Shown here: positions 3,130-31,286 of the stretch, in pieces
How positions within the stretch are numbered: the stretch's first letter is position 1
Layout: every line of letters begins with the position of its first letter
Virus record (IMG/VR): IMGVR_UViG_3300009702_000023
Span: 1 to 64,000 of that record
DNA length: 64,000 bases
Strand: one strand, 5' to 3'
Source: a virus
Notes under the pieces: model-generated
What the model saw: only the letters and a program-made list of their open reading frames with translations
Told to the model about the DNA's origin: nothing
Databases searched by the model: none
Program-made: the position numbers and the translations under genes

Positions 3130-3145
3130 CATAAATATTTGTTAA
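3130..3145 (-). promoter_or_regulatory. Putative late promoter TTAACAAATATTTATG
   Basis: Exact 16-mer recurring upstream of minus-strand structural units. Confidence 0.75.
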
Positions 3146-5425: not shown

Positions 5426-6100
5426 ATGAATATTATAGCCGATGTTGCCGGAAGATATGACGAATTAATGTTGCTTCTGAACCAAATGCCAAAGTCAGAT
5501 TTAACTATTTATGTCGGCGATTTAAATGATCGCGGGCCAAAATCTAAACAAGTTATTGAGTATGTTATGTCTGAGCCCAATTCTATATGTTTAAATAGCA
5601 ATCATGGTGACATGTTTGTTGATTTTTATGAAGGAATTCATCGTTATTATCGAGATGATTTTCTAAGAAACGGGGGCATTACTACATTAAAATCTTACGG
5701 TTGTGGATTACAGGATGGGGATTTACAAAAAATCGTAGATGAAGTTCAGGACAATGTGCCCAAAAAACATATTGATTGGCTTAAAAATTTACCATATTAT
5801 TATGAAAATGATAATGTATTTATATCTCATGCAGCAAAAAATCCTACATTTCCCCTGGATAGCTTATGTGTAAATGATCCCAAATCCATATATTATAATT
5901 TATTGTGGAATAGAGGCGAGCCCGGAAAAATAGAAGGTAAGTTACAAATTATGGGACATAACAGTCACTGGGGAATAAAAAAGTTCGGTAATCCCGATAA
6001 ACCGTGGGCTATCTGTATTGATGGATCAAGAAAAAATAGATTAACAGGATTACATTTAACAGATTTAAGTCTTTATCATCAAGATTATTTAAAAGATTAA
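5426..6100 (+). CDS. Ser/Thr protein phosphatase-like metallophosphoesterase (atypical motif I)
   Basis: GDLNDRGPKS, SNH, NGG..T..SY, SHA, LLWNR, MGHN; DVAG in place of DxHG. Confidence 0.8.
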   Translation: MNIIADVAGRYDELMLLLNQMPKSDLTIYVGDLNDRGPKSKQVIEYVMSEPNSICLNSNHGDMFVDFYEGIHRYYRDDFLRNGGITTLKSYGCGLQDGDLQKIVDEVQDNVPKKHIDWLKNLPYYYENDNVFISHAAKNPTFPLDSLCVNDPKSIYYNLLWNRGEPGKIEGKLQIMGHNSHWGIKKFGNPDKPWAICIDGSRKNRLTGLHLTDLSLYHQDYLKD

Positions 6101-7512
6101 TTTTTAATCCAAACAAACTTTAAATTACCTAAATCATATACTTTAGTAAATCCATTAATCATCATATTTTCGGTTTCAGTTAATTTACTTAAAAATATTG
6201 GAATCATTTTTGGTAATTTAGATTTCATACATTTATACCTACTATATACTATATCACCCTTTTTATACCAATAATTAGGTTTTGTTTTTCCAACACAAGA
6301 CATCCCTAATATATTATATACATTTCCGTGGCTATATCGCAAATCACAATATGATATTATTGATTTAGGATTTTGCTCTTTTATAAAATGTTTAAATAAC
6401 TTAGATGCCCCGCCGATTACAACAGTGTACGGTTTCGATGACATTCGGACTATTTCCCATTCATATTGTTTAGTAAATCTGGGTTTACCGAAAGTCATAA
6501 TCATAACCAGTTCATCATCATAATAAAGACCATAAGCAATAGAAAAATTAGCATGGCCTTGCATATGGGTTTTATTTAAAAATGTTTTAGCTTCAGTTGT
6601 CATGACTCTTTTAATTTTACAACGGCGAGCATATATTCTATTTTTTAAAGAATTCTTGGAATCAATAATATCTTTATTTTCGCCCGGTAAAAGCTCATGA
6701 TATTTTAAATATATTTCTTTATTTTCAATATTAAATTTGGCACCTTTTTTTATATTATCTTTGGCCCATAGAGGTTTTAAATTTGTGTAATGATTCAATC
6801 TCGCGGCTTCATCATAATTAGAGGCTAGTGCCATTGGTATTATGTGCTCTAAATGCCAACCATTTGCGGTATTATTATCCCAAGTCATGCCAGGTAGAAA
6901 TTGTGATTCTAAGTGCCGTTTTAATTCTTCATATGTACAACCGATGTATTGATCTTTTTCCCCCGTTTTCTCCCAATTCTCTTTTCGCATTATATCATAT
7001 ATTCTGCGTTTTACTCTCTTTTTTATTAACCATAATTTATCATTTTTTTCTCTTGTTTTTTTATATTCTTGGGAAGATTTTATACACTTTTTTCGATTAT
7101 CGTAGTAATATTTTTGAGATTTGTTTTTTAACTTTTCAGAATAATTATCATTTTTTACATATTTTTGACGTAAATTATAATTTCGACACTCAGCGCATAT
7201 AGAATTAATCCCATCAAATCTTTGTGGATTTTTATGAAAAGCTGAAATATCTTTGATTTTATCACATTGATTGCATTTTTTCTGATTATTTTTCGCTAAA
7301 AGTTTTTGTTCTTGTATTCTTGCTGCTGTGGGAGAGAGAACCGATGGGTCTGTTTTTCTAGATTTTTGATATTCACTTGTTTTATTATAATAAAGTTTAC
7401 TTTGCTCACTTTGGCATATTTTACAAATAGATTTTTTACCATCTTTTGATCTTTTGTATTTATTAAATTCTTCTAATTTTTTATTTTTATTACATTTCGA
7501 ACAAATTTTCAT
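6097..7512 (-). CDS. Homing-endonuclease-like fusion: Zn-finger repeats + HNH domain + Hef-like C-terminal domain
   Basis: CxxC repeats; WHLEHIIP...NHYTNLKPLWAKDNIKKG; C-terminal IYARRC...GGASKLFKHF...SYCDLRYS.GNVY...VYDLG. Own sigma-70 promoter (-35 at 7545-7550, -10 at 7522-7527) supports ATG 7512. Confidence 0.75.
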   Translation of the reverse strand: MKICSKCNKNKKLEEFNKYKRSKDGKKSICKICQSEQSKLYYNKTSEYQKSRKTDPSVLSPTAARIQEQKLLAKNNQKKCNQCDKIKDISAFHKNPQRFDGINSICAECRNYNLRQKYVKNDNYSEKLKNKSQKYYYDNRKKCIKSSQEYKKTREKNDKLWLIKKRVKRRIYDIMRKENWEKTGEKDQYIGCTYEELKRHLESQFLPGMTWDNNTANGWHLEHIIPMALASNYDEAARLNHYTNLKPLWAKDNIKKGAKFNIENKEIYLKYHELLPGENKDIIDSKNSLKNRIYARRCKIKRVMTTEAKTFLNKTHMQGHANFSIAYGLYYDDELVMIMTFGKPRFTKQYEWEIVRMSSKPYTVVIGGASKLFKHFIKEQNPKSIISYCDLRYSHGNVYNILGMSCVGKTKPNYWYKKGDIVYSRYKCMKSKLPKMIPIFLSKLTETENMMINGFTKVYDLGNLKFVWIKN

Positions 7513-7552
7513 ATTATATATAATATAACACATATTCAGGGGCATGTCAAGC

Positions 7553-7584
7553 AAAAAAATAGCCCGATATTAAACCGGGCTATT
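7553..7584 (-). terminator. Rho-independent terminator after the major capsid gene
   Basis: AATAGCCCG-loop-CGGGCTATT followed by a T run on the minus strand. Confidence 0.85.
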
Positions 7585-9474: not shown

Positions 9475-9490
9475 CAATAATATTTGTTAA
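9475..9490 (-). promoter_or_regulatory. Putative late promoter variant TTAACAAATATTATTG
   Basis: Shares the TTAACAAATATT core. Confidence 0.7.
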
Positions 9491-15869: not shown

Positions 15870-18518
15870 TTAATGCTTTTTTAAACTTGATCGGGGTTTA
15901 AATATATTAATAAATGCCTCATATTCTTTATTTTTCTCGGCATTAGTTTTAATAAATAAATCTTTATTTTCGCCTAAACCATATCCAGGGGGGTATGGAT
16001 TTTTAGATTCTTGAACATTTCGTATAAAATATGTAATTGCATCGCAATTATGAACGGCAATATCATTAACGGTATAACTATTGTCTTCTTCAACTTCCAG
16101 ATTATATACTTTTCCCGTATATAAACTCTCACTTTTTGTTAATTTTTTAAAATTCGATGGGTAATTATACTTATTTTTCGAAATTATATCATGTATTAAC
16201 TTATCTTCAAATATATAAGCTAAATCTTCATTTTTATTAATGTTTGTTATTAGATCTATGGCTTGTTGCTTATCTAAGTGCCAAATATATTGATCTTTTG
16301 CCGAAGGAGAAGATTTCCATCTTCCTTCCCGCTTTTGAAATGTAATATTACCCACTAATCCTAATTTTCTAGATAATATATCAACCCCATGTATAATTTC
16401 TTTACTAATGCTATTACCGATTATTCCGGTTTTAGAAAAATAACCATCGCCAAATAAATAACCAAGTAACATATACATAGATTGTTCTTTATTCAAATCA
16501 TATATAAATGGGGGAAAATGTTTTTGGGTACTAGTGCCTAATTTTTTCAACTCTGATCTAAGTTCGGATTGTGTAACACATATAATTCTACCATTATCAC
16601 TGTCTTTTTTATAATATCGGGCCTTCGTGCTTCGAGGTTTACACTCTCCATTTTTATGTCGGTTAATAGATCGCCTAGATACGCCACGTTTACCTTTTCC
16701 ATATGTATTATGTACTGCCTTTTCTAATATACCTAAAACATTTTTTTCTCTTTTATGACCGGCAAAAGATATTTGGTGCCCATTCCCACCAACAGATCCT
16801 TCGGCAACATAATATCCGTATAAAAAACATAATTCTTTTGTAATATTAATATTTCCTTCTTCAATAAAAGGAATATAAGCTTTATGATTTTCAAAATTTA
16901 ATTCAGCAGCGGGACTCCAGTTAGTGCCAGTAATTATTTTTTGACCAGTAAAACCTTCTTTTCTATTTTTTTCAACATTGCCAACATATAACCGATGATT
17001 AGGTGTACATTGCATCAACTCTCTTCCCGGAACTTTTATGTCACAAATTTCCCCAGAATAATCTCTATTCATAGTATTTGTAACTTTTTTAAATCTACCT
17101 TGGTGAGTTAATACTTGATCTCCGATAACAATATCTTCTATTTTTTTATACCCAGCATTGGTTAAAACTTTTTGGCCAGGCAAAAAACAGGCATCGTAAT
17201 GTCCTGAAGGAATAAAAATTGTATTATTTTCTTCATCATATAAAGTTACAGCGGGAGATTTAACATATTTCTTTCGATTTTTATCCCATGTAGCATTTTT
17301 TAAATGATGTATTAAAACTTTGCATCTGGGGTGTATTATAATTTTTTCTGATGCAATCCTCATCCTGAGATTGTTTAATGCAGCGTCTTTATTATCTTTT
17401 GCTGTAGGAATAAATAATAAATTATGTTTATAATTTAAATCATTCAATAAAATTAAGTTATTATTATCAGATACTCTTAAATATGGCTCTTTATATTCTC
17501 CCGATGCCGGGTTAGAATATACTTTCTGTTCTTTTTTCTTAATTTCCTTAGCTAATACATCTGTACGTAATGCTTGACCTTTAATATAAAATTCATCCTC
17601 AATAACGGTAACGGCATTTTTAAAATCATAATATCCAAACAAAACCACTGTTAAATCATCAAATCCTATGTCCATTGACACATAGGCGTCATAAAATGGG
17701 GGTCTTGGCCAGGCTTTTATACATTTTTCTTGAATAGCTGTTGTAAATTCGGGAATTACGGCTTTTTCAGAGTCAATAATAATTTCACAAAGGTATTCTC
17801 GGCGGAAATCATCATCTTTTTCTTTTAAAGGGTAACGATTAATGATTTTTTGTCTTTTTTCGGGAGTCATCATGGGATTATCAAATAACGTGTACTTAAT
17901 TAACTCCCCCGTCAACTCGTTTGGTTGAACAAACTCCGTTATAAATTCATGATCGGGCTTAGGTGATGGTGTAGAAGCTAAAATGCCCCGACCGCCGGTA
18001 GTATCCGCCGTTGGAGCAAGGACAGAATTAACAATATCCTTCAATTCATCGCAAAAACCTGCCTCATCGACAATCCATAGATCGGATTTACCTCCGCGAA
18101 GTGATTGGTAGTGGCCATTATCTGTTCCTGCTATCTGAATTTGACTTCCATTAGGAAAAAGGTACATTTTGGCATTAGTTTTATATTCTGGGCGCAATTC
18201 CGGGGGGCAATCTTTAAAAATATCTTGCATAATCGGTTTAATAATCTTTTGCACCATGTCTTGCTTAGGACAAACATATTTAACAATAGAATCTGGTTTT
18301 TTGAGACACTGTTCAACAGATAATACACATAATAAATAACTTTTGCCCAATCTTCGGGCACAAGTAATAACCGTTATTTCTTTATTGAAATCATTAATAG
18401 AGTTATACATGCGTTTTTGAACTTCATGTAATTTCCAATGAATAACCCCTCGTCGCCAAAGAGTAAATAATGCCTCTTTAGGTGTTGGTTTTTTTATTTC
18501 CATTAGCAGATCCCGCAA
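15870..18518 (-). CDS. terL: Terminase large subunit with intein
   Basis: CARRLGKS Walker A, LRGG, WIVDEAG Walker B, ASTP, MDIG nuclease motif; true start may be a few codons downstream. Confidence 0.92.
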   Translation of the reverse strand: MRDLLMEIKKPTPKEALFTLWRRGVIHWKLHEVQKRMYNSINDFNKEITVITCARRLGKSYLLCVLSVEQCLKKPDSIVKYVCPKQDMVQKIIKPIMQDIFKDCPPELRPEYKTNAKMYLFPNGSQIQIAGTDNGHYQSLRGGKSDLWIVDEAGFCDELKDIVNSVLAPTADTTGGRGILASTPSPKPDHEFITEFVQPNELTGELIKYTLFDNPMMTPEKRQKIINRYPLKEKDDDFRREYLCEIIIDSEKAVIPEFTTAIQEKCIKAWPRPPFYDAYVSMDIGFDDLTVVLFGYYDFKNAVTVIEDEFYIKGQALRTDVLAKEIKKKEQKVYSNPASGEYKEPYLRVSDNNNLILLNDLNYKHNLLFIPTAKDNKDAALNNLRMRIASEKIIIHPRCKVLIHHLKNATWDKNRKKYVKSPAVTLYDEENNTIFIPSGHYDACFLPGQKVLTNAGYKKIEDIVIGDQVLTHQGRFKKVTNTMNRDYSGEICDIKVPGRELMQCTPNHRLYVGNVEKNRKEGFTGQKIITGTNWSPAAELNFENHKAYIPFIEEGNINITKELCFLYGYYVAEGSVGGNGHQISFAGHKREKNVLGILEKAVHNTYGKGKRGVSRRSINRHKNGECKPRSTKARYYKKDSDNGRIICVTQSELRSELKKLGTSTQKHFPPFIYDLNKEQSMYMLLGYLFGDGYFSKTGIIGNSISKEIIHGVDILSRKLGLVGNITFQKREGRWKSSPSAKDQYIWHLDKQQAIDLITNINKNEDLAYIFEDKLIHDIISKNKYNYPSNFKKLTKSESLYTGKVYNLEVEEDNSYTVNDIAVHNCDAITYFIRNVQESKNPYPPGYGLGENKDLFIKTNAEKNKEYEAFINIFKPRSSLKKH
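16047..17189 (-). mobile_element. Intein (381 aa) with LAGLIDADG endonuclease
   Basis: CFLPGQKV start, VYNLEV...IAVHN|C end; FLYGYYVAEGS and LLGYLFGDGY blocks. Confidence 0.93.
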
Positions 18519-27974: not shown

Positions 27975-29015
27975 GTGAAAACGGAGCTTAAGTTAAATAA
28001 AAACATAAAATTGAGTAAAACCCAATTGCATTATTACAATAAATTGTCGAGTAAAGACAAACAAAAATATCTATTGTCAAAATTGGGAGTGAAATTTGGT
28101 GTTCCTATGAAGGTTGATAAACTTCATAATTATAAAATTGATAAATTATGTCAAAAAGGGAGAAATAGCATATTGCGTCAATTTCGGGAGATAACTAATT
28201 GTTCCAGTTGTGCGGAGCACAAACCAATAAATGGACTTAAAGGTTCATTCTGGGTGGGAGTGGAAATTGAATGCAATATACCTGATTATATTGGGGAATG
28301 CACTGAATGTGGTGGAACTAGTGAGGTAACATGTTATGATTGTGGCGGTAATGGTTGTGAAGAATGTGGTGGTTATGGTGAAATTAATTGTCTCGAATGT
28401 GATAGCGGGAGCATGGGTTTTAATTATTTAAGAGACAAAATTAAACAAGCCGGGATTAGACGAGCTTCAGTGCGTCGAGATGCGTCTCTATGCTCAGTTT
28501 GTGGTGGGGTGGAGATTACCCTTCTCTTTAATGCTGCGCGTAGCTATGAGCCTCTCAGGCGCTTGTGCGACCTTTTGGGTGACCTAGATGCTGAAATTGA
28601 TTCTGATTGCGGTTTACATGTTCATTTAGATATGAAAGATAGGACAAAAAGACAAGTTATGTATATGAGTAAAAAAATAGAAAAATACATTATTCCTCTG
28701 TCTCTTATGGTCCCTGCGTCAAGACGAGATAATAGATATTGTAGATTAAAAGCCGGAGATATTGATAAACATAATGATAGATATAACGCAATTAATACTG
28801 ACTCGTGGAGAAAACATAAAACAATTGAGATTAGACTGCATTCCGGGAGCACTAATTTTAAGAAAATTAAGAATTGGATTGAATTATTGCGAAAAATTGT
28901 TAATAAACCCGGTCCTAAGGTTAAATTAAACGAAACTAATGAAATGATCCGACATTTGGGCATTAAATACCCATTGGCAAGATATATTAAACAGCGGGAG
29001 AAAAAACATGTGTAA
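27975..29015 (+). CDS. Amidoligase (COOH-NH2 ligase) with inserted CxxCxGxG zinc finger
   Basis: VGVEIE, RDASL, GVEI, CGLHVHLD, RYNAIN, TIEIRLHSGS.NF.KI.NWI. Confidence 0.85.
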   Translation: MKTELKLNKNIKLSKTQLHYYNKLSSKDKQKYLLSKLGVKFGVPMKVDKLHNYKIDKLCQKGRNSILRQFREITNCSSCAEHKPINGLKGSFWVGVEIECNIPDYIGECTECGGTSEVTCYDCGGNGCEECGGYGEINCLECDSGSMGFNYLRDKIKQAGIRRASVRRDASLCSVCGGVEITLLFNAARSYEPLRRLCDLLGDLDAEIDSDCGLHVHLDMKDRTKRQVMYMSKKIEKYIIPLSLMVPASRRDNRYCRLKAGDIDKHNDRYNAINTDSWRKHKTIEIRLHSGSTNFKKIKNWIELLRKIVNKPGPKVKLNETNEMIRHLGIKYPLARYIKQREKKHV

Positions 29016-30021
29016 AATATTAACATTTACAAACGGCGCTAAGCTTAATACGAGTGATATACAAAAAATCGGTCAAGAAATGTTATACCTTGACCCAGAC
29101 GGTTTTGGTTATGCAATTAAAGGAACTAAAGGCATATTCGGTGAGAAATATATCGGTTCTAAATTCACGGTCAGTATTACCAATACTAAGCCTCTCCCTA
29201 AAATGCTATTAGAGCCTTTAAGAGAAACATTCGGCGAATACTCCAAGATTGATGGCCCCGCGTTGTTCCATGGCCGGACTTCGACTAATTGTCTTAATCT
29301 TAATAATACTCATCCTATACAAAAAAATAATTGGAATTTAATACATAATGGTGTCGTAACCGATCATGGTCCTAAATATAAAATGATTACAACTAATGAC
29401 TCGGAACATGTATTAGAACATTTGATAAACGGTGGCATTAAAGAGGTCTCCGAACATCTCAGCGGGTATTATGCATTTACAGCCATTGACCCTAACGGAT
29501 TACTCCACATTTGTCGTGACGATGTTGCTAAACTCTTCTCCACTTGGTCCCCATCTCACGAAACATATATATTTAGTACCACTCCCGATTTGCTGACTAA
29601 TATAGCTAAATTGTGTAATATTACAATTGACTCAATAGAATTAGTAAAATCAGAAACTTATTCAACCTGGAATAATAATGAATTGATTAATGCCGAGACT
29701 TTTAACTCTCGTGGGTTTACATCACATGAACAAAAACATTCTAAACGCTCATTGGGGTATGATCTCCCGAATTCCGGGGATAATATAGTCGATGTTACAG
29801 ATACGGGTGATAATTATAACTATGATGATTATAATGACGATTATTATAATGAACTGGACTATTTAGACGATGAATATAAAATCTACGACGATCATGGCTC
29901 CCGAATGACGGTCTCCGAATTTTATCAATTAGATGATATTAATCAATTATTATGTACTATTGTGCGTCCTGATGGTACGGAGATTAATTTAACTAAATAC
30001 GAAAAATATTATGCGGGGTGA
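29008..30021 (+). CDS. Class II (Ntn) glutamine amidotransferase
   Basis: N-terminal Cys2, DGFG, HGRTST, NTHP, HNGVV, NDSE. Confidence 0.88.
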   Translation: MCKILTFTNGAKLNTSDIQKIGQEMLYLDPDGFGYAIKGTKGIFGEKYIGSKFTVSITNTKPLPKMLLEPLRETFGEYSKIDGPALFHGRTSTNCLNLNNTHPIQKNNWNLIHNGVVTDHGPKYKMITTNDSEHVLEHLINGGIKEVSEHLSGYYAFTAIDPNGLLHICRDDVAKLFSTWSPSHETYIFSTTPDLLTNIAKLCNITIDSIELVKSETYSTWNNNELINAETFNSRGFTSHEQKHSKRSLGYDLPNSGDNIVDVTDTGDNYNYDDYNDDYYNELDYLDDEYKIYDDHGSRMTVSEFYQLDDINQLLCTIVRPDGTEINLTKYEKYYAG

Positions 30022-30024
30022 TTT

Positions 30025-30219
30025 ATGGACCACATTATAATTGCATTTACTATATGTTTATTATTATATAAATACTTTGGTTTATCATTATTAGGTTGTT
30101 TTTTTATATTAATGTTTCTAGGTATAGGTAAAGAATTTACTGATACTTATGTTTCATATGTTGATTTATTATGCAATACAATCGGTTTTATGTTATTTTA
30201 TGTTTTTACTGAACATTAA
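30025..30219 (+). CDS. Small membrane protein
   Basis: GIGKE..D...DLLCN..G pattern with hydrophobic segments. Confidence 0.5.
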   Translation: MDHIIIAFTICLLLYKYFGLSLLGCFFILMFLGIGKEFTDTYVSYVDLLCNTIGFMLFYVFTEH

Positions 30220-30265
30220 ATCCTAAAATGACGTATAAAACGATTTATAACATACTTCTCCCTTT

Positions 30266-30298
30266 AATATCCCGGTCTTATATGATCGGGGTATTTTT
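30266..30298 (+). terminator. Terminator of the first early operon
   Basis: AATATCCCGGTC-TTATAT-GATCGGGGTATT-TTT. Confidence 0.7.
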
Positions 30299-30383
30299 AA
30301 CTCTAGAGGTAATTTCTCCCGAAACTCGTATTGAGGCAAGTCACTCAAAAATTGTGGTAATTTTTTTCGTTTATATTTTTTTC

Positions 30384-30727
30384 TTGTTGATTCGTCCCGG
30401 CTATCGCTGCTCCCGCTTTTGGCTCCGCAGCGGCCTGACTTATTATTTTGAATTAGCTTTTGGTTTACATTTAATAAAGCTGTCGCTATACCTTATATAT
30501 ATAAAAGGGATGTTTGGATCGCCCCGGTGGCACCTATTTAAGGCTCCTGAGTTTCTTTCTACCCCGTTTGCCCCCACTTATGTATTAGGCTGGTCGACGA
30601 ATAAGCTTTACAGCACTTATTTGCATGCCTGTCTTTAACTCCGATCTTTTAAGACTTCTAGAGTAGGTAGGCTTACCCCTTACATGGTCTTTACAGTAAT
30701 ATTTGTTAATCAACAACACTACTATAC
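30384..30727 (-). ncRNA. Candidate large structured non-coding RNA (~330-345 nt)
   Basis: Sigma-70 promoter and late motif point into a GC-richer block with no sizeable minus-strand ORF; terminal 9-bp stem and many internal stems. Confidence 0.55.
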
Positions 30728-30762
30728 ACATATACTATAGCATAGTGGGTTTAGGATGTCAA
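30694..30762 (-). promoter_or_regulatory. Tandem sigma-70 promoter and late-motif variant
   Basis: TTGACA (30762-30757)-N17-TATAGT (30739-30734) with extended TG; TTAACAAATATTACTG at 30709-30694. Confidence 0.7.
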
Positions 30763-31286
30763 GAATTATTTTTAATATAATAAAGTTGTATTAAAATAAA
30801 AGATGTATTATATTATGTATAAAGGAGTGATAAATGAAACGAGTCTTAAAACGCTTTAAAAGCCTTATAGGATGTGTTGATAGTTATGTGTGTGAAACAC
30901 TAGCCCCGGATGGTAAAAAGGCCGTGTGCAGCCAATGTGGCCTTGTGACGAATAGTTGTGACTCACTTCCATTTTTTCAAAAAAGAGTAGACAAACCCAC
31001 CGACATATATTATTGTGGTTGTCGTGGTTGGAACTAAAAACGGGAGAATATAATATGAAATACATAATACATGATGTGATATTAATAATTTTGATTATTA
31101 TTATTACGGCAATTGGTAATAATTTAATATATGCGGCACAGACTAAAAGGTGTAGCCCCGAAATTACACAACTAGAAAGAACAAGACAAATTAAACAAAT
31201 TGTGGTAAAATTAGATGAGGCAATTAAAAGAGCCAAACTAGACCAGAAAAAAAGAGAAATTGAGTTAAAATTGAGGTAAATAAAAT

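What the first reader, a model, noticed from the sequence alone, without database searches (positions are those of the whole stretch)
30384..30762. Candidate large phage non-coding RNA with both a host-type and a late promoter
Seen: a strong minus-strand sigma-70 promoter (TTGACA-N17-TATAGT, extended -10) and, just downstream, a variant of the late motif (TTAACAAATATTACTG). Both point into a GC-richer block with no sizeable ORF on that strand. The ends of the predicted transcript are complementary over 9 bp (TTGTTGATT 30716-30708 with AATCAACAA 30392-30384). They enclose many stems: GGTA-AGCC-TACC, ACTC...GAGT around TCTT-AA-AAGA, AATAAG...CTTATT, CCTT...AAGG, AGCTTT...AAAGCT and GTC-AGGC-CGCTGC...GCAGCG-ATA-GCC-GG-GAC. 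Every other copy of the late motif precedes protein genes. I see no tRNA, tmRNA, RNase P or hammerhead signature. Inference: a ~330-nt structured RNA made early and late. The late-promoter form would lack the 5' closing strand, suggesting two conformers. An origin or primer RNA is an alternative.
Basis: partly seen in the sequence, partly recalled or inferred. Interest (0 to 1): 0.85.

Follow-up and report, generated by a model that had tools for sequence, protein, structure and literature searches.

The report
Orphan non-coding unit in a phage
An uncultured phage carries a 0.6-kb gene-free stretch with two convincing promoters pointing into it, so it probably makes a non-coding RNA, but nothing I could run shows that this RNA is folded, conserved or expressed.

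Summary
Two of them exceed chance. One is the minus-strand TTGACA-N17-TGcTATAGT promoter (30762..30734), among the three best in the 73.8-kb genome. The other is a 12/12 copy of the core of the phage's own late motif (30709..30694).

They point into the longest ORF-free gap of the genome (30220-30833). Its core is 43-45% GC, against 21-32% in most other gaps of 150 bp or more.

The claim of a large structured RNA is not supported:
- Folding energy matches shuffled sequence: z -1.0 for the early form, +0.2 for the late form, and -1.6 to +0.9 in 150-nt windows over the core.
- The 9-bp "closing helix" is expected about once by chance and is absent from the predicted fold.
- Rfam 15 and ARAGORN find nothing.

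No homologue was found in viral, metagenome or genome collections, so covariation cannot be tested. No RNA run holds the locus.

The plus-strand 136-aa ORF is an orphan that runs through a strong terminator, and no minus-strand ORF is credible.

Best reading, about 35%: a lineage-specific non-coding RNA gene made early and late, fold unknown. Rivals are an RNA-primed origin, a cis-antisense regulator and a decayed insert. The scan had noted this stretch once before, on the same genome only.

The parts
30734..30762 (-). Sigma-70-type promoter: TTGACA, 17-nt spacer, TG, TATAGT. The early start is expected near 30727.
   Evidence: 11/12 with TG; one of three such sites in the genome; 11 observed at >=11/12 against 5.3 shuffled.
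30694..30709 (-). Variant copy of the phage-specific late motif (core TTAACAAATATT exact). The late start is expected near 30690.
   Evidence: nine minus-strand copies in the genome. The other eight lie 10-150 nt upstream of protein genes.
30692..30726 (-). Imperfect inverted repeat or 5' hairpin that embeds the late motif. It would be present only in the early transcript.
   Evidence: -11 kcal/mol, z -2.4, 5 of 200 shuffles as good.
30440..30691 (-). ORF-free, GC-richer, purine-rich body of the presumed RNA.
   Evidence: GC 0.43-0.45; stops in all three frames at the random rate; no excess folding stability.
30522..30679 (-). Four runs of four or more G on the transcribed strand (30679-30676, 30575-30571, 30565-30562, 30525-30522). 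This is the densest such cluster in the genome.
   Evidence: 4 runs in 200 nt against a genome mean of about 0.28.
30491..30508 (.). Palindrome CCTT-(TA)n-AAGG, the only copy in the genome.
   Evidence: (I8). The only copy in relative G001 also lies inside that phage's own GC-rich non-coding block.
30394..30439 (.). GC-rich stem-loop. On the plus strand it is followed by UUAUUAUUUU (30440-30450) and looks like a second terminator.
   Evidence: -20.0 kcal/mol on the minus strand, -17.5 on the plus strand; all pairs are Watson-Crick, so the strand cannot be told.
30340..30393 (-). A-rich, AT-rich tract after the hairpin. There is no intrinsic terminator for the minus strand here.
30266..30301 (+). 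Strong intrinsic terminator of the upstream plus-strand early operon. It is weak and lacks a U-tract when read on the minus strand.
   Evidence: z -5.1 on plus, -1.6 on minus..
30228..30638 (+). 136-aa ORF called by gene finders, judged spurious (a shadow of the purine-rich minus strand).
   Evidence: only itself among 5.8 billion proteins. Atlas model pLDDT 0.48; no family. It starts without a ribosome-binding site and runs through the terminator at 30266-30301.

Best explanation
This is a lineage-specific, stand-alone non-coding RNA gene on the minus strand, set against the direction of the surrounding early genes.

Early in infection, host RNA polymerase would start near 30727 from the near-consensus extended -10 promoter. 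Late in infection, the phage's own late promoter copy would start about 35 nt further in, near 30690. Both would yield a purine-rich, G-cluster-bearing RNA with no reading frame. If the GC-rich hairpin 30439..30394 sets or protects the 3' end, the RNA is about 300-335 nt. If not, it runs on antisense into the early operon.

I take the product to act as RNA, for example by binding a host or phage factor, rather than as a message.

- Shown: both promoter signals, the lack of any credible ORF on either strand, the atypical composition and length of the gap.
- Inferred: that it is transcribed, where it ends, and that the RNA is the functional product.
- Not shown: any defined fold.
For: - The promoter scores 11/12 plus TG, one of the three best sites in the genome.
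- The late-motif core is exact. It belongs to a nine-member, all-minus-strand family, where I estimate about 0.14 chance copies of the core.
- This is the only copy of the late motif not followed by a gene.
- It lies in the longest ORF-free gap of the genome, with a core GC of 0.43-0.45 against 0.21-0.32 in most other gaps. Long GC-rich intergenic regions in AT-rich genomes are enriched for RNA genes; that is the premise of the DIMPL pipeline (PMC8723152, PMC11109978).
- Stops occur in all three minus frames at the random rate, and no ORF has a ribosome-binding site.
- The plus-strand ORF and the longest minus-strand open frame have no relatives.
Against: - Folding is no more stable than for shuffled sequence, for either transcript form or any 150-nt window.
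- There is no Rfam family.
- No homologue was found in two complete related phages, in 18 amidotransferase-bearing loci or in pattern scans of three collections.
- The minus strand has no intrinsic terminator.
- The 3' hairpin has an alternative reading as a plus-strand terminator.
Confidence: 0.35

Rival explanations
1. RNA-primed replication origin. Transcription from the tandem promoters through a G-cluster-rich segment leaves a persistent RNA-DNA hybrid. The hybrid is used as a primer next to an easily melted TATATATA palindrome and A/T-rich tract. This would resemble ColE1 RNA II, the T4 oriF/oriG R-loops or the promoter-dependent primary origin of T7.
For: - The densest cluster of G-runs on the transcribed strand in the genome.
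- A unique CCTT-(TA)n-AAGG palindrome, followed downstream by an A-rich AT tract.
- Two promoters in tandem.
- The longest non-coding gap.
- The phage has a T7-style replication set, a primase-helicase and a family A polymerase.
- Relative G001 has an unrelated GC-rich non-coding block beside divergent promoters, and that block holds G001's only copy of the same palindrome.
- The parallels to ColE1, T4 and T7 come from my own knowledge, not from a tool.
Against: - No iterons or repeated binding sites.
- The block is GC-rich rather than AT-rich overall.
- It sits 14 kb from the replication genes, inside an accessory region that relatives lack.
- There is no skew turning point.
- The shared palindrome was noticed post hoc.
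Confidence: 0.2
2. Cis-antisense or convergent-transcription regulator. The RNA matters only because it is transcribed against the end of the upstream early operon (amidoligase, amidotransferase, 64-aa hydrophobic protein). It would damp that operon, above all late in infection, by polymerase collision or by duplex formation with read-through transcripts. A type I toxin-antitoxin-like relation to the 64-aa membrane protein is one variant.
For: - The unit faces the 3' end of the plus-strand operon.
- There is no minus-strand terminator before the operon. The plus-strand terminator is weak and lacks a U-tract when read backwards.
- The next terminator-like site on the minus strand is at about 29069, which would make the RNA antisense to both genes.
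- A hydrophobic 64-aa ORF lies immediately downstream at 30025-30219.
- Using a late promoter fits shut-off of early genes.
Against: - This reading does not explain why about 330 nt of GC-rich, ORF-free sequence sits between the promoter and the target in a compact genome.
- The 64-aa gene is a normal operon member with its own ribosome-binding site.
- The terminator-like site at 29069 is at the chance rate (shuffles).
Confidence: 0.2
3. Non-functional remnant. A decayed inserted gene cassette (a moron) or other acquired DNA has lost its ORF while its promoter survives.
For: - GC content like coding DNA, with no structure signal and no conservation.
- It lies in the accessory early region 27-40 kb, which relatives do not share.
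Against: - All frames carry stops at the random rate, so any decay would be complete. Yet the GC content has not drifted toward the 21-32% of most other gaps, and both promoter motifs are near-perfect. One of them is the phage's own late motif, which argues against recent foreign origin.
- No protein similarity in any frame.
Confidence: 0.15
4. The locus is protein-coding: the plus-strand 136-aa ORF 30228-30638 or a small minus-strand peptide is the real product.
For: - The 136-aa ORF is long for an AT-rich genome, and gene callers called it.
- Two mini-ORFs of 13 and 15 codons have GGAG-type sites upstream.
Against: - The only match among 5.8 billion proteins is the ORF itself.
- No Pfam or PHROG family, and the Atlas model has pLDDT 0.48.
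- The ORF lacks a ribosome-binding site and contains the strong terminator at 30266-30301.
- The 89-residue minus-strand open frame has no start codon. Its single hit is a repeat artefact at 25% identity.
Confidence: 0.04

Closest known systems
Large phage- or prophage-associated non-coding RNAs (GOLLD, ROOL) and other large bacterial ncRNAs found as long GC-rich intergenic regions (OLE, HEARO, raiA)
   Same: A long ORF-free region richer in GC than an AT-rich genome, in phage DNA, with its own promoter. This is the kind of locus the GC-rich intergenic-region approach targets (PMC8723152, PMC11109978).
   Different: There is no match to any of these Rfam models, even at E<=10. The locus is 330 nt rather than the roughly 600-800 nt I recall for ROOL and GOLLD. 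It has no excess folding energy, no adjacent tRNAs and no homologues.
Transcription-primed origins: ColE1 RNA II, T4 oriF/oriG R-loops, the T7 primary origin (tandem promoters plus an AT-rich region); from my own knowledge
   Same: Promoter or promoters reading into a G-rich transcript segment followed by an AT-rich, easily melted stretch. The replication machinery is T7-style.
   Different: No experimental origin data exist. There are 330 nt between the promoters and the AT tract. There is no sequence similarity, and the promoters belong to the host and to the phage late system rather than to a phage RNA polymerase.
Convergent antisense RNAs of phages and prophages: lambda oop, P22 sar, and Bacillus prophage type I antitoxin RNAs such as RatA and SR4; from my own knowledge
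   Same: A strong promoter oriented against the end of an operon, with a small hydrophobic protein gene immediately downstream on the other strand.
   Different: Those RNAs are about 70-220 nt. They overlap their target directly and end at defined terminators. Here about 430 nt separate the start from the target's terminator, and no minus-strand terminator is present.

Membership tests
Any Rfam 15 family (including ROOL, GOLLD, HEARO, OLE, raiA, 6S, RNase P, SRP, group I/II introns, self-cleaving ribozymes) | Covariance-model score at or above the family's gathering threshold | tested here: not met
   No match at gathering threshold in the whole window. At E<=10 on 801 nt and on 351 nt, only four chance-level matches of 10-17 bits appeared against thresholds of 36-60 bits, and none lies in the block on the minus strand.
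tRNA / tmRNA | Cloverleaf or tRNA-like domain plus tag reading frame, as recognised by ARAGORN | tested here: not met
   No genes found in the 64-kb window.
Structured ncRNA in general | Folding energy clearly below that of dinucleotide shuffles | tested here: not met
   z -1.04 for the early form, +0.24 for the late form, and -1.6 to +0.9 in windows over the block. A weak z does not exclude a pseudoknotted RNA.
Structured ncRNA in general | Compensatory base changes among homologues | not testable with these tools
   No homologue was found.
Retron ncRNA, DGR template or group II intron | A reverse transcriptase gene in the element or genome | tested here: not met
   PF00078 has no match in the 73.8-kb record, while the control genomes do match.
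Type I toxin-antitoxin (convergent antisense RNA) | The antitoxin RNA overlaps the toxin mRNA and has a defined end | tested here: inconclusive
   A hydrophobic 64-aa ORF lies downstream. The overlap would need a transcript of more than 430 nt, and there is no minus-strand terminator before about 29069. No transcript data exist.
Transcription-primed replication origin | A promoter reading into a G-rich RNA segment next to a DNA unwinding element, with initiation mapped there | tested here: inconclusive
   The sequence features are present. Initiation cannot be tested by computation.
Miniature transposable element (MITE) | Terminal inverted repeats beyond chance, target-site duplication and other copies | tested here: not met
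   The 9-bp inverted repeat is at chance level. No duplication flanks it. There is no other copy in the genome.

The most novel reading that the evidence does not exclude
The block is the first member of an unrecognised class of phage RNA: a roughly 300-nt G-cluster-rich RNA made from tandem early and late promoters. It would act either as a stable trans-acting RNA or as the primer of an R-loop-type origin. The unrelated GC-rich non-coding block of relative G001 carries the same unique CCTT-(TA)n-AAGG palindrome and would be its functional counterpart.
Probability: 0.25. Interest if true: 0.6.

Novelty: new member of a known kind. Interest (0 to 1): 0.3.

Why it matters
If the RNA is real and functional, it would add a non-coding gene, or a mapped origin, to a family of uncultured subsurface phages. 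Nothing is known experimentally about this family. The nearest cultured relative is a Silvanigrella phage with 27% portal identity.

A unit served by both the host promoter type and the phage's own late motif would also give a handle on that late transcription system.

As it stands, the locus is a reasonable but unverified candidate. It also shows that a list of hand-found stems in a GC-richer gap is not evidence of structure.

Tried and rejected
**Known RNA families**
- Rfam at gathering threshold and at E<=10 found nothing usable.
- ARAGORN found nothing.

**DNA similarity**
- The 50,697 phage records gave no match.
- blastn, nhmmer and tblastx against two complete relatives (G001, G002; portal about 50% identical), three partial relatives and 18 amidotransferase loci gave only chance-level hits. 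The 17-nt match in G001 lies inside a coding region.

**Exact and gapped pattern scans**
- Viral contigs gave nothing for two block patterns. A third pattern hit two unrelated GC-rich contigs.
- Genome contigs gave nothing.
- Scanning viral contigs for the late motif, to find closer kin, returned 93 stretches; every row printed had a single match. The one from the right sample (G006) shares no protein with this phage.

**Searches through neighbouring proteins**
- The amidotransferase as a single query found nothing in viral or metagenome contigs.
- The amidotransferase alignment found 18 viral loci in which what follows the gene is different.
- The portal protein in metagenome contigs returned one contig already seen in the viral set, one with the same length and identity as another of them, and two short fragments. 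In genome contigs it found nothing.
The Logan contigs carrying the 120 listed amidotransferase relatives could therefore not be inspected.

**Sequencing runs**
- Only the probable source run, a subsurface metagenome, holds the stretch, and no RNA holder is listed. Laying its contigs showed no variants.

**Other checks**
- Trans targets: no extended complementarity to the rest of the genome apart from the late-motif copies.
- A CsrB-like GGA sponge was rejected: I counted five GGA by eye on the sequence, against about six expected from composition.
- The SRP-like look of the 3' hairpin was rejected because Rfam gives no hit.
- The retron, MITE and pseudo-tRNA-array ideas were rejected.
- GC-rich gaps of relatives compared all against all show no similarity to this block.

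Full report
**Setting**

The window is the first 64 kb of a 73.8-kb IMG/VR virus contig (88% complete, 33% GC). The only sequencing run that holds it is a subsurface metagenome.

The genome has minus-strand virion and packaging modules at both ends. A plus-strand early and replication block runs from about 26.6 to 58 kb. The nearest cultured phage is a Silvanigrella phage with 27% portal identity.

The finding lies in the plus-strand block, just after an operon that encodes an Amidoligase_2 protein, a class II glutamine amidotransferase and a 64-aa hydrophobic protein. A Cys-rich 67-aa gene begins at 30834, with a good ribosome-binding site.

**What is really in the sequence**

The minus-strand promoter is as described: TTGACA at 30762..30757, a 17-nt spacer, TG, and TATAGT at 30739..30734. 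Across the whole genome only three sites combine 11/12 or better with the TG of an extended -10. Sites at 11/12 or better are about twice as frequent as in shuffles.

The late motif is also real. The 12-nt core TTAACAAATATT occurs in all nine minus-strand motif copies in the genome, and I estimate about 0.14 chance copies from base composition. The other eight copies sit 10-150 nt upstream of virion or packaging genes. The copy at 30709..30694 differs from the commonest 17-mer at three 3' positions. It differs at two positions from the functional-looking variant found at 9490 and 65193.

The gap 30220-30833 is the longest stretch in the genome without a credible gene. Its core has 43-45% GC, while most other gaps of 150 bp or more have 21-32% and three reach 35-39%.

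**Coding potential**

All three minus-strand frames carry stops at about the rate I estimate for random sequence of this composition. The only ORFs with a GGAG-type site upstream are 13 and 15 codons long.

It has no ribosome-binding site and runs straight through a strong terminator. It has no Pfam or PHROG family and a poor Atlas model (pLDDT 0.48). It matches only itself among 5.8 billion proteins.

The longest minus-strand open frame (89 residues, no start codon) gave one hit in an exhaustive HMMER search. That hit is a 25%-identity artefact of a protein built from many identical repeats. tblastx against every related locus I held found nothing. The locus is non-coding.

**Structure**

- The 361-nt early form folds at -83.5 kcal/mol, against -78.3 ± 5.0 for dinucleotide shuffles (z -1.04; 15 of 100 shuffles as good).
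- The 307-nt late form has z +0.24.
- Sliding 150-nt windows lying within 30380-30739 on the minus strand range from -0.86 to +0.89; windows that also take in flanking sequence reach -1.58.
- The listed hairpins individually give z -0.4 to -1.6.
- The 9-bp pairing of the ends is real, but I estimate about one such pair by chance in a region this size, and neither the MFE nor the centroid fold uses it.
- Only the 5' hairpin 30726..30692, an imperfect inverted repeat that embeds the late motif, is mildly unusual (z -2.4).

The one strong structure signal nearby is on the other strand: the terminator of the early operon at 30266-30301 (z -5.1). On the plus strand it is followed by UUAUUAUUUU and looks like a second, tandem terminator. 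On the minus strand it is followed by an A-rich tract, and no intrinsic terminator follows before about 29069.

A weak energy z-score does not exclude a pseudoknotted RNA. It does mean that the stems are not evidence.

**Known families**

Rfam 15 gives nothing at gathering thresholds over the window. At E<=10 on the locus it gives only chance-level matches. ARAGORN finds no tRNA or tmRNA. The genome has no reverse transcriptase, which removes the retron, DGR and group II readings.

**Relatives**

I could find no homologue of the block.
- The phage collection has none.
- Portal-based searches found relatives at 50-58% identity, two of them essentially complete (G001, G002), plus a 5-kb fragment at 73%. 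None has similar DNA.
- The whole 27-40 kb early region of this phage is absent from G001 and G002.
- The amidotransferase has 217 relatives at E<=1e-5; the 120 listed are 35-48% identical. In the 18 viral loci I could fetch, the amidoligase-amidotransferase pair is kept in the closer loci, but what follows it differs.
- Pattern scans with pieces of the block, and with the late motif, gave nothing related.
- Only the probable source run holds the locus, without variants, and no RNA run is listed.

Covariation and expression are therefore untested, not negative.

**Other features**

The transcribed strand carries the densest cluster of G-runs in the genome, four within 160 nt. The genome's only CCTT-(TA)n-AAGG palindrome lies at 30491-30508.

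Relative G001 has its own roughly 270-nt GC-rich, ORF-free block beside divergent promoters that share a palindromic TTGCAA -35. That block is otherwise unrelated in sequence, yet it contains G001's only copy of the same palindrome. I noticed this after the fact, and about 0.27 copies per genome are expected by chance. It is a lead, not a result.

The block has no extended complementarity to the rest of the genome.

**Weighing the readings**

The two promoter signals, the absence of any ORF, and the retention of 330 nt of GC-rich sequence in a compact AT-rich genome argue that something here is kept by selection and is transcribed on the minus strand.
- A trans-acting RNA gene explains the composition and the dual promoters. 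It lacks any structural or comparative support. I put it at about 35%.
- An RNA-primed origin explains the G-clusters, the palindrome, the AT tract and the tandem promoters. It lacks iterons and any positional support: about 20%.
- A purely cis-antisense role explains the orientation and the missing terminator, but not the block itself: about 20%.
- A decayed insert explains the lack of structure and conservation. It fits poorly with the intact promoters, one of them phage-specific, and with GC content that has not drifted: about 15%.
- Protein coding is unlikely: about 4%.

**Verdict**

This is a plausible but unverified orphan non-coding transcription unit. The evidence available does not show it to be a large structured RNA. 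The scan had noted this stretch once before, on the same genome only.

Noticed in passing
L017:10560-10830 (G001:C1:70560-70830) and window 30491-30508: Relative G001 has its own GC-rich (up to 0.51), ORF-free block beside divergent promoters that share a palindromic TTGCAA -35. It has no Rfam hit, and its fold z is -1.8 and -1.2. It is unrelated in sequence to the window's block, yet each genome's only CCTT-(TA)n-AAGG palindrome lies inside its own block.
   Followed up: partly
window 15870-18518 (-): The large terminase is 881 aa. The terminase match covers residues 25-416. Residues 442-835 match families (an anaerobic ribonucleotide reductase PHROG and several of unknown function) in a way that suggests an intein-like insert.
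   Followed up: no
window 6097-7554 (-): A 485-aa HNH / endonuclease VII-type homing endonuclease gene lies next to the major head protein gene.
   Followed up: no
window 30266-30301 and 30394-30450 (+): Two terminator-like hairpins lie in tandem after the early operon, about 100 nt apart with nothing coding between them. No clear sigma-70 promoter was found for the next plus-strand genes, which start at 30834.
   Followed up: partly
window 27975-30021 (+): An Amidoligase_2 gene and a class II glutamine amidotransferase gene overlap by 8 nt. The amidotransferase has 217 relatives at E<=1e-5, mostly in uncultured phage-like contigs, and the pair stays adjacent in the closer viral loci examined.
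   Followed up: partly
window 3145, 9490, 10563, 15860, 19391, 24760, 30709 and G000:C1:65193 (all minus strand): The late motif TTAACAAATATTTATGA and its variants occur only on the minus strand. Relatives G001 and G002 lack it, so the late promoter specificity appears lineage-specific. At 3145 and 19391 a divergent TTGACA promoter sits just upstream.
   Followed up: partly
L042:8108-8371 (G005) and G002:C1:53124-53611 (in L020): Two GC-richer gaps of different relatives share a 76-nt stretch at 70% identity (E 4e-4 within the small set). It could be a conserved small RNA or a small ORF.
   Followed up: no
L019:9414-9485 (G002): ARAGORN reports a tRNA with an undetermined, two-base anticodon beside a normal tRNA-Asn. 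Rfam also scores it as a tRNA.
   Followed up: no
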